Assembly: GCF_009914755.1 (NCBI RefSeq)
Contig: NC_060947.1
From: the human T2T-CHM13v2.0 reference genome, Homo sapiens
DNA length: 64,000 nt
Strand: one strand, 5' to 3'
The notes under the pieces were generated by a model that ran no database searches, had not been told where the DNA came from, and was given only the letters and a program-made list of their open reading frames with translations. Position 1 is the first letter of the stretch. Every line of letters begins with the position of its first letter. Both the position numbers and the translations under genes were made by a program. This document shows positions 10,501-17,094 of the stretch, piece after piece.

Positions 10501-12567
10501 TGATTTTTTGAAGGGTTTTTAATGTCTCTATCTCCTTCAGATCAGTTTTGATCTTAGTTATTTCTCGTCCTCTGCTAGTTTTTGGGTTTGTTTGCACTTG
10601 GTTCTCTTGTTCTTTTAGTTGTCACGTTAGGTTGTTAACTTGAGATTTTTCTAACTTTTTGATGTGGGCATTTAGTGCTATAAATTCCCTTTTTAAGACT
10701 GCTTTAGCTGCATCCCAAAGATTCTCATATGTTATATTTTTGTTCTCATTAGTTTCAAAGAACTTCTTGATTTCTGCCTTAATCTCATTATTTACCCAAG
10801 AGTCATTCAGGAGCATGTTGTTCAATTTCCATGTAGTTGTGTGGTTTTCAGTGAATTTCTTAATCTTGAGTTCTAATTTGATTGTGCTGTCATCTGAGAG
10901 ACTGTTATTATTTCAGTTCCTTTGCATTTGCTGAGGAGTGTTTTACTTCCGATTATGTAATTAATTTTAGAGTAAGTGCCATGTGGTAATGAGAAGATTG
11001 TATATTATGTTGTTTTTGGGTGGAGAGTTCTGTTGATATCTATCAGTTCCACCTGATCCAGAGTTGAGTTCAGGTCCTGATGTCTTTTTTAATATTCTAT
11101 CTTGATGACCTGTCCCATAGTGTCAGTAGATTGTTAAAATTTCCCACTATTGTTGTATGGGAGTATAAGTCCTTTTGAAGGTCTCTAAGAACTTGCTTTA
11201 TGAATCTGGGTGCTCCTGTATTGGGTGCATATGTATTTAGGATGATTAGCTCTTCTTGTTGAATAGAACCATTTACCATTATGTAATGCCCTTCATTGTC
11301 TTTTTTGATTTTTATTGGTTTAAACTCTATTTTATCAGAAACTAGGATTGTAACCCTACTTCTTTCTTTTTTCCATTTGCTTGGTAAATTTTCCTCCATC
11401 CCTTTATTTTGAGCCTGTGTATGCCTTTGCCTGTATGATGAGTCTCTTAATGACAGCATACCCATGGGTCTTGATTCTTAAACCAGCTTGCCATTCTGTG
11501 ACTTTTAATTGGGGCATTTGGCCCATTTACACTTAAAGTTAGTATGGTTATGTGTGAATTTGATTCTGTTATCATGTTGCTAGCTGGTTATTTTGCAGAG
11601 TTGTTTATGTGGTTGCTTCATAGTGTCACTGGTCTGTGTAATTCAGTGTGTATTTTTAGTGGCTGATAATGGTTATTCCTTTCCATAGTTAGTGCTTTCT
11701 TTGGGAGCCCTTGCAAGGCGAGACCAATGGTGACAAATTCCCTCAACATTTGCTTGTCTGAAAAGGATCTCGTTTCTCCTTCGCTTTTGAAGTTCAGTTT
11801 GACCAGATATAAAATTCTGGATTGGAAATACTTTTTTTTCTTTAAGAATGTTGAATATTGGCCCCCAATCTCTTCTGGCTTATAGGGTTTCTGCTGAGAA
11901 GTTCACTCTTAGTCTGATGGGCTTCCCTTTGTAGGTTACCTGGCCTTTCTCTTTGGCTGCCCTCAACATTTTTTCTTTCATTTTGACCTTGGAGAATCTG
12001 ATGATTATGTATCTTGGAGTTGTTCTTCTCATGGAGTATCTTACCAGGCTTCTCCGCATTTCCTGAATTTTACTTCATGGTTGGATTCTCAGGGAATCAT
12101 TTTATTACCATAATTTTAACATTACTGGGCTAAGAAAAGTTTCATGTTTGCCTTCTATACTATATACACTGGCCTGGTGATGTGAGACCTGATTAAAATC
12201 AGGTGATATGGCCTGTCTTGCTAGGTTGGGGAAGTTCTCCTAGATGATATCCTGAAGTATGTTTTCCAACTTGGTTCCATTCTCCCCATCTCTTTCAGGT
12301 ACCCCAATCACTCATAGGCTTGTTCTTTTTACATAATTCCATATTTTTTGGAGGTTTCATTCATTCTTTTTAATTTTTTCTCTATTCTTGTCTGCCTGTC
12401 TTATTTCATAAAGATAGTCTTCAAGCTCTGAGATTCTTTCCTCTGCTTGGTCTATTCTGCTATTAATACTTGTGATTGCATTGTGAAGCTCTTGTGTGTA
12501 TTTCAGCTCTAACAAGTTGGTTATGTTCTTCTCTAAACTGGTGATTTTGGCTGTCATCTCCTGTACT
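7528..12567 (-). mobile_element. ~5-kb 5'-truncated L1 (older L1PA, about PA10-13), decayed ORF1 end + ORF2 + 3' UTR
   Basis: Minus-strand ORF fragments match L1 ORF2 (endonuclease: YAPNTGAPRFIKQVL; RT region: [24 protein letters not shown]) and ORF1 (SRIDQAEERISELED). Perfect 16-bp TSD agaaaactagaattct at 7512-7527 and 12568-12583. Confidence 0.95.
12071..12208 (-). repeat. Non-L1 insertion inside the L1: inverted copy of local DNA (12938-12992 joined to 16550-16622)
   Basis: The reverse complement of 12072-12199 aligns without gaps to 12938-12992 + 16550-16622 (12 mismatches in 128 nt by manual count). L1 sequence resumes at 12209 (tggcctgtcttgctaggttgggg). Confidence 0.93.
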
Positions 12568-12992
12568 AGAAAACTAGAATTCTTAAGGCAGAGTGGACTT
12601 TAAGACCCACGTTTTGTATGAGGGAAGGTAGTGTGGAGAAATATTGCATAAGAACAGAACTTGAACCCAATTATATGGGGGAAAATAAAAATGAAAAGAA
12701 AATGTCTGTGATAACCCAGGGACTTAGACTGGTGACTGGATTGCATGGTCTTTCACCATAATGGAGTTTAGAGGAGAATGGACATGATCATGGGGAAAAA
12801 TGGCCTTTCATTTGAGACACTCAGGTTTTTAGATGCCTGACTTTAAAAGTGTAGAAATTTAGAGTCTGACACAAAGTGTTCTGCAATAACATAGTTCCTC
12901 ATCGAGTTTGTGACAGAACTTGGAAAACCAGCATAATATTTTAGTCAGGTCTCATATCACCAGGTGAGTGTATACAGTATAGAAGGCAAACA

Positions 12993-16012: not shown

Positions 16013-16537
16013 GAAGAATTAATTTGTTCTTTAGTTCAAAGACTTTCTTACAGACAAGAGCGCAGTCATACATTTGATATCAGTTCCTACTGTTTTCTGA
16101 AAATTATATAGCATATTATGATTTAAGATATAAAAGGGGAGACTGCTCCTTAGGACTTGCCTGGACATGAGATCTTTGGCATAGACTTGGTACCTAGGCT
16201 TATGGTGAACCTAGAAATGTGGAGGTGCCCCGAACAAAAGGTAGCATGGAATGAATAAGCAAAGTCTTTGGGAGGTGAGGATTTTTCTTGGCCCTCTAGT
16301 TGCCAGGTTCCCAGGTTTAACCCCCCGTGTTCTTAGTTTCAGAGCCTCAGTTGAATGGGGTAGAGATGCTTTCCCAGAGGCCCAGAATACCGACTGTCTT
16401 TGAGAGGAGAAGTTGTACTGTGTCAGTCCCTACGTCATTAGGATGTGTGTGTCATCTGGGTGGTGTTTTAATTTAACACTCCATTGTACACAATAGCAAT
16501 AAATAATAAATAAAATCTGTTCTGCTTAAGCAAAAAA
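16013..16537 (+). mobile_element. L1 3' transduction (~520 bp of non-L1 DNA)
   Basis: Lies between the L1 poly(A) and the 3' TSD. Ends with three AATAAA hexamers (16498, 16505, 16509) and an A-run at 16532-16538 abutting the TSD. Confidence 0.9.
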
Positions 16538-17094
16538 AGAAGGCAAACATGAAACTTTTCTTAATTTAGTAATGTTAGAACTATGGTAATAAAATGATTC
16601 TCTGAGAATCCAACCATGAAGTTAATGAACACAAATGAATTAAATTATAAAAAGTAAGAGAAATTTATTGTTGGAGAGAAAAATGTCTTCAATTTGGTCT
16701 TGGAGAGATGAACGTCTCCAGTTTGTTAAGACTTCACTCAACATGAGTGAAAAATGGAGTCAATTGCAAAGAGGTATACTTAGTGGAGAAAATATAGAAA
16801 TGGAAGATTGCACATGCAAAAATGCATTGGTGTCACCCACGCAAGCATTTTGCAGATGAAAAATGTTCCAGTTCCTGGATCCAATTCCAATCATATTCAT
16901 ATGGCAAGAAAGGAAATTTTAAGCAAAGAAGATATGTTCTCATAATTAAGGCCTCATAGCCCCCAAGTAAACTGATATAATGTTTTTCCTATGTACTGAG
17001 AGAGGGTGTCCTAGTCATTTCAATTTTAAATAGTCTAGCCTTTGGGAGAATTATTTTGGATTGTGAAATAAGAAGTTTGTATTCTGGTCTTTGT

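What the first reader, a model, noticed from the sequence alone, without database searches (positions are those of the whole stretch)
12071..16622. Inverted local copy inside an old L1 preserves the empty target site of a younger L1
Seen: the older antisense L1 is interrupted after tcctgaattt (12070) by 138 non-L1 bases. The reverse complement of 12072-12199 matches 12938-12992 followed directly by 16550-16622 (128 nt, no gaps, 12 mismatches by hand). Today those two halves are separated by the 3.5-kb younger L1 and its transduction, and the copy contains the TSD sequence agaaggcaaaca only once. Inference: the copy records the pre-insertion allele. It fixes the order as old L1, then templated copy (same event or later), then young L1, and it independently confirms the TSD and transduction limits. 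The source lay about 740 bp from the copy. Two mechanisms fit: a templated insertion during later double-strand-break repair, or an ORF2p template switch during integration. A switch would need a plus-strand template, either local DNA or a nascent plus-strand RNA.
Basis: partly seen in the sequence, partly recalled or inferred. Interest (0 to 1): 0.8.

Follow-up and report, generated by a model that had tools for sequence, protein, structure and literature searches.

The report
Break-repair copy of nearby DNA inside L1
An old L1 on the human X chromosome carries a 138-base patch copied backwards from unique DNA 738 bases away, an ordinary scar of break repair that also preserves the site where a younger L1 later landed.

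Summary
The reverse complement of 12072-12199 equals 12938-12992 joined to 16550-16622: 128 nt, 12 mismatches, no gaps. In the whole T2T genome the 128-mer matches only itself and those two halves. Both donor flanks are unique. The acceptor is one antisense L1 (7528-12567, 16-nt target-site duplication). Where the window has 138 nt (12071-12208), 25 of 29 related L1 copies have 6 nt and none has the insert. The donor was later split by a 3,557-bp twin-primed L1 with a 522-nt 3' transduction from contig C7. The copy holds that L1's 12-nt duplication once.

The joints show a 2-nt microhomology, a 6-nt deletion and a 9-nt filler re-copied from the same donor. Divergence orders the events as old L1 (about 0.08-0.11 per lineage), then copy (0.05), then young L1 (0.022).

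This fits the known class of proximal repair-mediated duplications, of which 824 were reported in human (Pace et al. 2009, PMC2671141). A later break repair is the best reading. An ORF2p template switch at integration is unlikely. The finding is real and tidy, but ordinary.

The parts
7512..7527 (.). Left target-site duplication of the old L1 (AGAAAACTAGAATTCT)
   Evidence: Identical 16-mer at 12568-12583; sequence read.
7528..12070 (-). Old L1, 3' portion (antisense on the + strand): short T-run at 7529-7534, then ORF2 and the C-terminal part of ORF1. It contains later insertions.
   Evidence: Aligns in the opposite orientation to the young L1 over 7541-10133. Pfam finds Transposase_22 (E 4.8e-23) in 11880-12074 minus and Tnp_22_dsRBD in 11618-11902 minus. 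Genome relatives align up to 12070.
12069..12070 (.). 2-nt microhomology (TT) shared by the L1 end and the donor (complement of 16624-16625). 12071 (T) is a mismatch against the donor.
   Evidence: (arm I6 extends to 12069/16625).
12072..12199 (-). Inverted copy (acceptor) of the pre-insertion donor: 128 nt with 12 mismatches, 11 of them transitions, including a 4-nt and a 2-nt run.
12145..12156 (-). The young L1's 12-nt target-site word, present once inside the copy. This is the fossil empty site.
12200..12208 (.). 9-nt filler (CAGGTGATA). GGTGATATG at 12202-12210 is the reverse complement of donor 12953-12961: 7 nt of filler plus 2 nt (TG) shared with the L1 end.
   Evidence: 28 of 5000 shuffles reach a 9-nt exact match.
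12209..12567 (-). Old L1, 5' portion (5'-truncated within ORF1), collinear with the 3' portion apart from 6 missing nt.
   Evidence: relatives' matches end at 12540-12568, mode 12565. Pfam Tnp_22_trimer in 12357-12599 minus.
12568..12583 (.). Right target-site duplication of the old L1.
12938..12992 (+). Donor, left half, in unique flank DNA. It ends with the young L1's left target-site duplication (12981-12992).
12993..13383 (-). Young L1, inverted 5' segment (twin priming).
   Evidence: 12994-13384 aligns to old L1 10258-10646 in the same (antisense) orientation, while 13384-15980 aligns in the opposite orientation. 124 nt of L1 are missing between the two segments.
13384..16008 (+). Young L1, sense segment to its 3' end, with an A-rich tail (about 15985-16008).
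   Evidence: Best genome relatives are 94-95% identical.
16009..16530 (+). 3' transduced sequence, 499 of 522 nt identical to contig C7 at about 123.746 Mb. It ends about 20 nt after AATAAA motifs.
16531..16537 (+). Second poly(A) tail (C followed by an A-run; the A-run's last base, 16538, doubles as the first base of the duplication).
16538..16549 (.). Right target-site duplication of the young L1 (AGAAGGCAAACA).
16550..16622 (+). Donor, right half, in unique flank DNA. Homology runs to 16625 if the microhomology is counted.

Best explanation
The insert is a repair-mediated duplication: a scar of imprecise DNA break repair in the germline, made well after the old L1 had integrated.

Shown by the sequence:
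- The old L1 DNA is interrupted at 12070/12209.
- Six L1 bases are missing there.
- In their place are 138 bases, of which 128 are an inverted copy of unique DNA 738 bp to the right.
- The joints have a 2-nt microhomology on the left.
- On the right there is a 9-nt filler that is itself a short second copy from the same donor, overlapping the L1 end by 2 nt.

Inferred mechanism, the one I commit to (about 45% for these exact steps, about 80% for post-integration DNA-templated repair in general):
1. A two-ended double-strand break was resected 5' to 3'.
2. This exposed the minus strand of the right-hand end as a long 3' overhang that included the donor region.
3. Its 3' end (...GGCCA) folded back on itself and paired through CA at 12953-12954.
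4. It was extended 7 nt and then released.
5. It re-annealed about 17 nt upstream and was extended 128-131 nt, from 12938 towards 16625.
6. It then annealed to the left end through AA/TT, and the gaps were filled and ligated.

Invasion of a sister chromatid by the left-hand 3' end (synthesis-dependent strand annealing, SDSA) gives the same product and cannot be told apart here.

Later a twin-primed L1 carrying a C7 transduction inserted into the donor. The copy therefore preserves the empty site.
For: - **Collinear L1.** The L1 is collinear across the insert with only 6 nt lost: 25 of 29 relatives have 6 nt there and 0 of 29 have the insert.
- **Single TPRT insertion.** The old L1 is one target-primed (TPRT) insertion bounded by a perfect 16-nt duplication.
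- **Unique donor.** The donor is unique genomic DNA.
- **Templated filler.** The filler has a 9-nt exact match to the donor; 28 of 5000 shuffles reach this.
- **Microhomology.** 2 nt at the left joint.
- **No retroposition marks.** There is no poly(A) or poly(T) run and no duplication at the insert ends.
- **Dating.**
  - The old L1's private divergence is 0.079-0.108 at positions on which relatives agree. Its ML terminal branch is 0.115 with 55 relatives.
  - Half the copy-donor distance is 0.050.
  - Control: the same two methods give the young L1 0.018-0.026, against 0.0217 from its transduction versus C7.
  - If the copy dated from L1 integration I would expect about 15-17% mismatch. P(12 or fewer of 128) is 0.043 at 15% and 0.011 at 17%.
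- **Class match.** Pace et al. 2009 (PMC2671141; abstract, section 7 and passages read) describe the following.
  - They found 824 human insertions in transposable elements copied from donors less than 5 kb away, with a median length of 147 bp.
  - Joints carried microhomology of 2-9 nt, deletions of 1-15 nt and filler of 1-68 nt.
  - 'MH+Del+Filler' was the commonest class, 10 of 39 proximal breakpoints.
Against: - The dating is only moderately strong. If the old L1's own decay is taken at the low end (an expected 13% mismatch), P is 0.136.
- The old L1's branch could be inflated, because only 40 of 5,882-14,127 candidate relatives were scored per search.
- Gene conversion between the two inverted copies would make the copy look younger.
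- The perfect 16/16 duplication of the old L1 sits slightly uneasily with about 9% decay per lineage.
- The 128-nt tract and the roughly 745-nt loop are long for polymerase-theta-type snap-back synthesis (recalled: usually tens of nt).
- Nothing here separates a two-ended break from a stalled-fork template switch.
- No orthologue could be examined.
Confidence: 0.8

Rival explanations
1. Replication-based template switch (FoSTeS/MMBIR type). While copying the old L1, a stalled or collapsed fork's nascent strand jumped by microhomology to the opposite-strand template 738 bp away. It copied 128 nt, jumped once more for a few bases, and returned 6 nt from where it left. No two-ended break was involved. 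(This is a sub-variant of post-integration DNA-templated repair, so its share overlaps the 0.8 given to the class.)
For: The MMBIR templated-insertion signature is described as an insertion near its template, in inverted orientation, flanked by microhomologies. Germline human events can be multi-template (Osia et al. 2021, PMC8421209; abstract and passages). All these features are present here. Short-range template switches in great apes reach 128 nt at most, with a median of 12 (Walker et al. 2021, PMC7954356; passages).
Against: Nothing speaks specifically against it. Its product is identical to break repair with snap-back synthesis. The donor distance of 738 bp exceeds the 100 bp or less that the MMBSearch definition uses.
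Confidence: 0.2
2. ORF2p template switch during integration of the old L1. The growing cDNA left the L1 RNA at 12070, copied 128 nt of plus-strand target DNA (or plus-sense RNA) about 370-500 bp downstream of the integration site, and then returned to the L1 RNA.
For: - ORF2p can switch templates, and L1 chimeras with other RNAs are catalogued (PMC13174262; passages).
- L1 integration can be accompanied by local inverted duplications of target DNA (bioRxiv 10.1101/2024.12.14.628481; passages).
- The donor lies only 371 bp from the L1's 5' joint.
- The dating does not strictly exclude simultaneity (P 0.136 at the lowest assumed L1 decay).
Against: - The enzyme would have had to return to the L1 RNA within 6 nt of the point it left.
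- The known chimeras and the L1-linked inverted duplications sit at the L1's 5' end or at the L1-flank joint, not inside the L1 with L1 on both sides.
- The required template is the plus strand, which is the strand that 5' resection of the right-hand end would remove (inference).
- The copy is about half as diverged as expected.
- Identical scars occur in transposable elements generally.
Confidence: 0.07
3. RNA-templated patch. A break in the old L1 was filled by reverse transcription of a local nascent transcript covering the donor, rather than by copying DNA.
For: Breaks can be patched from RNA-derived sequence (recalled; no paper read here). A cis transcript would explain the proximity. 11 of 12 mismatches are transitions, with a 4-nt all-transition run, which might hint at base editing of a single-stranded intermediate.
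Against: - There is no poly(A), no splice junction and no annotated gene or transcript in the window (hub annotation).
- The direction of the differences is not significantly skewed: 6 T/C against 2 C/T, counted by hand.
- DNA templating explains everything without an extra enzyme.
Confidence: 0.04
4. Two independent copies of an unrecognised interspersed repeat, or a chance match.
For: None found.
Against: - Genome-wide, the 128-mer hits only itself and the two donor halves.
- The donor flanks 12561-12992 and 16538-17100 are single-copy apart from the acceptor.
- E-values are 3.8e-26 and 1.4e-12.
- The homology spans the young L1's insertion point exactly.
Confidence: 0.01

Closest known systems
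[quoted passage not shown]
   Same: A transposable element is interrupted by 50 bp or more of non-TE DNA whose only other copy lies less than 5 kb away on the same chromosome. The size, 138 nt, is close to the published median of 147. The joints show microhomology, a small deletion and filler. There is no poly(A) and no duplication at the insert ends.
   Different: The donor has since been split by a younger L1, so it now appears as two hits 3.6 kb apart. This may or may not have passed their 'one other location' filter. Their locus table (an xls supplement) could not be read here, so I cannot say whether this locus is already listed. They report a deficiency of RDs on the X chromosome, where this one lies.
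MMBIR templated insertions (Osia et al. 2021, NAR, PMC8421209) and short-range template switches in apes (Walker et al. 2021, PLoS Genet, PMC7954356)
   Same: An inverted copy of a nearby template, microhomology at the joints, replacement of a few bases, more than one template jump, and germline fixation.
   Different: The template is 738 bp away, not within 100 bp. The 128-nt tract lies at the upper extreme of the ape data set (median 12, maximum 128).
Polymerase theta snap-back / synthesis-dependent microhomology-mediated end joining (PMC4912351, PMC2943611, PMC5728401; seen as search listing and abstract starts only)
   Same: Repeated cycles of annealing, short synthesis and release on a resected 3' end, producing templated filler and new microhomology.
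   Different: Those tracts are typically far shorter and their templates much closer to the break (recalled). No enzyme can be assigned to an ancient event.
Inverted duplications of target DNA at L1-induced breaks (bioRxiv 10.1101/2024.12.14.628481)
   Same: A 3' overhang self-anneals through about 2 bp and is extended, giving an inverted local duplication next to L1 sequence.
   Different: Those duplications sit at the L1-flank joint and arise during integration. Here the copy is inside the L1, 358 nt from its 5' end, with intact L1 and a perfect target-site duplication beyond it.
L1 chimeric insertions by ORF2p template switching (Cell Genomics 2026, PMC13174262)
   Same: Non-L1 sequence joined to L1 sequence within one element.
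   Different: Those chimeras carry an RNA-derived partner at the L1 5' end, mostly in sense orientation. Here the partner is unique local genomic DNA, internal to the L1, with L1 resuming 6 nt on.

Membership tests
Repair-mediated duplication (Pace et al. 2009) | A TE split into two same-orientation pieces by at least 50 bp, with TE positions resuming within +/-30 bp | tested here: met
   138 nt replace 6 nt; 25 of 29 relatives have 6 nt at that point. Criteria taken.
Repair-mediated duplication (Pace et al. 2009) | The inserted sequence is present at only one other place in the genome | tested here: met
   3 hits, namely self plus the two halves of one donor locus, which a later L1 has split.
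Repair-mediated duplication (Pace et al. 2009) | Donor on the same chromosome, less than 5 kb away and more than 50 bp away (not tandem) | tested here: met
   738 nt between copy and donor. Today the far half lies about 4.35 kb away.
Repair-mediated duplication (Pace et al. 2009) | No poly(A)/poly(T) of 5 or more at an insert end and no target-site duplication around the insert (so not retroposition) | tested here: met
   The insert ends were read. The longest A-run at an end is 4 nt and is copied from the donor. L1 bases are lost at the site, not duplicated.
Repair-mediated duplication (Pace et al. 2009) | Break-repair joints: microhomology 2-9 nt, deletion 1-15 nt, filler 1-68 nt | tested here: met
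   Microhomology 2 nt, deletion 6 nt, filler 9 nt. Ranges.
Repair-mediated duplication (Pace et al. 2009) | An empty acceptor site in some orthologous genome | not testable with these tools
   No primate genomes are held (header: 'It has no relatives here').
MMBIR templated insertion (MMBSearch definition, Osia et al. 2021) | An inverted copy of a template lying within 100 bp of the insertion | tested here: not met
   The orientation is inverted, but the template is 738 nt away.
L1 chimeric insertion by ORF2p template switch | The non-L1 partner is joined at the L1's 5' end, inside one pair of target-site duplications, and is derived from an RNA | tested here: not met
   The partner is internal, with 359 nt of L1 beyond it. 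It equals unique local genomic DNA.
L1 3' transduction (the younger L1) | L1 with its A-tail, then the progenitor's downstream flank, then a second poly(A), all inside one pair of target-site duplications; the flank is traceable to another locus next to an L1 | tested here: inconclusive
   The structure and the 12-nt duplication are met. The flank traces to C7 with 499 of 522 nt identical. However, no L1 sits at the C7 site in this assembly; it reads as an empty TTTT|AAAA site.
Twin priming (5' inversion of the younger L1) | The 5' segment is inverted relative to the 3' segment and maps just upstream of it in L1 coordinates | tested here: met
   12994-13384 aligns in one orientation and 13384-15980 in the other, with a 124-nt gap in L1 coordinates.

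The most novel reading that the evidence does not exclude
The copy was made during integration of the old L1. The L1 reverse transcriptase, or a host polymerase acting on the unfinished cDNA, briefly used exposed plus-strand target DNA about 400 bp downstream as template, for example single-stranded DNA at a replication fork. It then resumed on the L1 RNA. This would be a natural record of a reverse transcriptase switching from RNA to DNA and back in the middle of an element.
Probability: 0.07. Interest if true: 0.55.

Novelty: new member of a known kind. Interest (0 to 1): 0.2.

Why it matters
It matters little on its own. It is a clean textbook example of a germline break-repair scar that copies nearby DNA, a class already counted in the hundreds in the human genome.

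Its one attractive feature is that three dated events are nested in 9 kb and check each other. The copy serves as an internal fossil of the empty site of a later L1. That fixes the L1's target-site duplication, its transduction limit and the order of events without needing another species.

Such split-donor cases may be missed by pipelines that require a single contiguous donor hit. A systematic search allowing later insertions in the donor could therefore enlarge the catalogue somewhat and supply built-in pre-insertion alleles for dating.

Tried and rejected
- **Dispersed repeat or chance match.** Rejected.
- **Insert as part of an L1 subfamily.** Rejected: 0 of 29 relatives carry it, and the genome holds no other copy.
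- **Reading the last filler bases as a decayed remnant of the 6 missing L1 bases.** This needs about 3 changes. The 9-nt exact donor match is simpler, so I rejected it, though not firmly.
- **A local donor for the 4-nt mismatch run (12127-12130 / 16564-16567).** No word of 9 nt or more spanning the copy's variant occurs elsewhere in the window. Matches to the source's AT-rich variant are scattered and far away. An earlier attempt used the wrong coordinates. The run is unexplained; about 0.01 is expected by chance.
- **Editing bias in the mismatches.** 11 of 12 are transitions, but the direction counts are not significant (by hand).
- **The old L1's 16/16 identical duplication as a clock.** It is too short and is defined by its own identity.
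- **Pfam on raw frames.** Failed because of stop codons. Stop-to-stop pieces were used instead.
- **Locus table of Pace et al.** Unreadable here.
- **Relatives of the young L1.** 20 of the 39 listed relatives were fetched as exact stretches instead.
- **Dropped rows.** In the trees, 3 of 58 old-L1 loci were dropped for covering less than 80% of the query. In one search, 5 of 29 were dropped for the same reason.
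Full report
**1. Observation**

I read 11700-13500 and 15900-17000 and compared the segments by script.
- The reverse complement of 12072-12199 equals 12938-12992 followed directly by 16550-16622: 128 nt, 12 mismatches, no gaps.
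- The repeat finder recovered both arms independently (I9 and I6). It extended the second arm by 3 nt, to 12069/16625.
- The window lies in a searchable 3.1-Gb assembly as contig C23. There the 128-mer has 3 hits: itself, 16538-16622 (E 3.8e-26) and 12938-12992 (E 1.4e-12).
- The surrounding donor DNA, 12561-12992 and 16538-17100, matches nothing else in the genome except the acceptor.
- The tool warns that its counts are lower bounds and that very common words are skipped. An ancient, highly diverged repeat is therefore not formally excluded, but a dispersed repeat of comparable similarity is.

**2. The acceptor is a single old L1**

- The stretch 7541-10133 aligns in the opposite orientation to the younger L1, and 10258-10646 aligns to that L1's inverted 5' segment in the same orientation.
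- Stop-to-stop reading frames on the minus strand match the three L1 ORF1 Pfam domains.
  - Tnp_22_trimer lies in 12357-12599.
  - Transposase_22, profile positions 42-96, lies in 11880-12074 (E 4.8e-23).
  - Tnp_22_dsRBD lies in 11618-11902.
  - The insert therefore sits inside the ORF1 RBD-like domain.
- The element is bounded by a perfect 16-nt duplication, AGAAAACTAGAATTCT, at 7512-7527 and 12568-12583. A short T-run lies at its left end. It is one 5'-truncated insertion.
- A genome search with 11850-12420 returned L1 relatives that align to query positions 1-221 and 360-571.
- I read the junction in 29 fetched relatives. Between ...CCTGAATTT and TGGCCTG..., 25 have 6 nt (GAATGT or GCATGT), 2 have 5, 1 has 7 and 1 has 0. 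None has the insert.
- So 138 nt (12071-12208) replace 6 nt of L1.

**3. The younger L1 and its transduction**

- The donor halves are separated by 3,557 bp.
- This element has an inverted 5' segment (12993-13383) and a sense segment (13384 to about 16008). The two map to adjacent L1 positions with 124 nt missing between them. That is the anatomy of twin priming.
- After its A-rich tail come 522 nt (16009-16530) that are 499/522 identical to one other place in the genome, on contig C7.
- They end about 20 nt after AATAAA motifs and are followed by an A-run and the 12-nt duplication AGAAGGCAAACA (12981-12992 and 16538-16549).
- In the copy that word occurs once, at 12145-12156.
- One qualification: at the C7 locus homology starts exactly at a TTTT|AAAA site and no L1 is present within 1.5 kb. 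The progenitor L1 is absent from this assembly. Either it was never fixed, or the 522 nt came from a C7 transcript by another route.

**4. The joints**

- Left joint: the L1 ends ...AATTT. Bases 12069-12070 (TT) are shared with the donor (complement of 16624-16625), and 12071 is a single mismatch.
- Right joint: 9 nt of filler (12200-12208) precede the L1's TGGCC.
- GGTGATATG (12202-12210) is an exact reverse-complement match to donor 12953-12961. That is 7 filler bases plus 2 bases shared with the L1 end.
- Only 28 of 5000 shuffles of the 15-nt segment reach a 9-nt match.
- The scar therefore has three features: a 2-nt microhomology, a 6-nt deletion, and a filler that is a second short copy from the same donor.

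**5. Dating**

- Copy against donor: 12/128, Jukes-Cantor distance 0.100, or 0.050 per lineage.
- Transduction against C7: 22/522, or 0.0217 per lineage. The two proportions differ (Fisher P = 0.026). If runs of mismatches are counted as single events (8 events) they do not (P = 0.34).
- For the L1s I estimated private decay without building any consensus sequence, in two ways:
  - the maximum-likelihood terminal branch among genome relatives;
  - the fraction of differences at columns where at least 70, 80 or 90% of relatives agree.
- The young L1 served as a control, with 20 relatives taken from the 39 listed. Its terminal branch is 0.024-0.026 and its column-based decay 0.018-0.026. The target from the transduction is 0.0217, so the methods work.
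- The old L1, with 55 relatives (3 of 58 dropped for short coverage), has a terminal branch of 0.115 and a column-based decay of 0.079-0.108.
- A segment duplicated when the old L1 integrated should then differ by roughly 15-17%. P(12 or fewer of 128) is 0.043 at 15% and 0.011 at 17%. It is 0.136 at a pessimistic 13%.
- The order old L1 > copy > young L1 is supported. A copy later than L1 integration is favoured but not proven.
- Caveats:
  - Only 40 of 5,882-14,127 candidate relatives were scored per search.
  - The window's L1 ranks 55th of 56 in decay, so some subfamily difference may inflate its branch.
  - Gene conversion between the inverted copies would rejuvenate the pair.

**6. Mechanism**

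The product is what a resected break end makes when it copies nearby DNA.
1. A break at 12070/12209 is resected 5' to 3'. The minus strand of the right end remains as a 3' overhang that includes the donor, 738 nt away.
2. If that 3' end folds back and pairs with the same strand, extension adds plus-strand donor sequence to it.
3. On the finished duplex this reads as an inverted copy abutting 12209, which is the observed orientation and polarity.
4. In this reading the 7-nt filler is a first, abortive round primed on a 2-nt overlap (CA at 12953-12954).
5. The 128-131-nt tract is a second round.
6. The AA/TT overlap is the final annealing to the left end.

These steps are inference. Invasion of a sister chromatid by the left end (the SDSA model), or a replicative template switch, gives the same sequence.

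Several points argue against an ORF2p switch at integration:
- The enzyme would have to return to the L1 RNA within 6 nt.
- The needed template is the plus strand, which resection of that end would remove (inference).
- Known L1 chimeras and L1-linked inverted duplications sit at the 5' end or at the flank joint, not inside the element (passages in PMC13174262 and bioRxiv 10.1101/2024.12.14.628481).
- The dating leans the other way.

**7. Comparison with what is known**

- Pace et al. 2009 (PMC2671141; abstract, section 7 and passages read) searched for exactly this configuration: TEs interrupted by at least 50 bp found at only one other genomic place.
  - They reported 824 proximal cases (donor less than 5 kb away, 66% of all 1,136 under 3 kb) with a median length of 147 bp.
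  - Joints carried microhomology of 2-9 nt, deletions of 1-15 nt and filler of 1-68 nt.
  - 'MH+Del+Filler' was the commonest class (10 of 39).
  - Ages ranged from human-specific to pre-primate.
- Every criterion I could test is met; see the membership table.
- Their locus table could not be read, so the locus may already be listed. The split donor might instead have failed their filter.
- The signature also matches germline MMBIR templated insertions in everything except donor distance (PMC8421209).
- It lies at the upper length limit of short-range template switches in apes, where the maximum is 128 nt (PMC7954356).
- The polymerase-theta and SD-MMEJ papers were seen only as a search listing with abstract starts.
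- I ran one search for a paralogous or templated copy preserving an L1 empty site (19 papers). Apart from Pace et al., it turned up nothing specific. I make no claim that the idea is unpublished.

**8. Verdict**

- The mechanism is resolved in favour of post-integration repair, at about 0.8 for the class. The exact pathway remains open.
- This is a new member of a known kind, possibly already catalogued. Interest is low, about 0.2.
- The decisive test, presence or absence of the three elements across primates, could not be run here.

Noticed in passing
window 16009-16530; locus L035 (contig C7, about 123.746 Mb): The young L1's transduced 522 nt trace to a C7 site where homology begins exactly at TTTT|AAAA and no L1 is present in this assembly. 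The progenitor L1 looks lost or never fixed, or the segment came from a C7 transcript by another route.
   Followed up: partly
window 12993-13384 / 13384-15980: The young L1 has a twin-priming-type 5' inversion, with 124 nt of L1 missing between the inverted and sense segments.
   Followed up: partly
window 12127-12130 vs 16564-16567, and 12171-12172 vs 12965-12966: The mismatches between copy and donor are clustered: a run of 4 (all transitions) and a run of 2. Overall 11 of 12 mismatches are transitions. About 0.01 runs of 4 are expected by chance, and no local donor word was found. Possible causes are errors of the repair polymerase or later multi-base events.
   Followed up: partly
window 7528-12567: The old L1 is more decayed than almost all sampled relatives (rank 55 of 56; 0.089 against a median of 0.052), although it lies on the X chromosome. 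It probably belongs to an older subfamily than most of the copies that the genome search scored.
   Followed up: partly
window 12175-12206: The right joint forms a small hairpin-capable motif: ACCTGAT...ATCAGGT, with 7-nt arms and a 4-nt loop. It is created by the end of the copy plus the filler, and is compatible with a very short snap-back step.
   Followed up: no
contig C18 29087-30457, 83103-84473, 137149-138519: Three equally scoring L1 hits spaced about 54 kb apart near the start of contig C18 indicate a large tandem (subtelomeric) duplication that contains the same L1.
   Followed up: no
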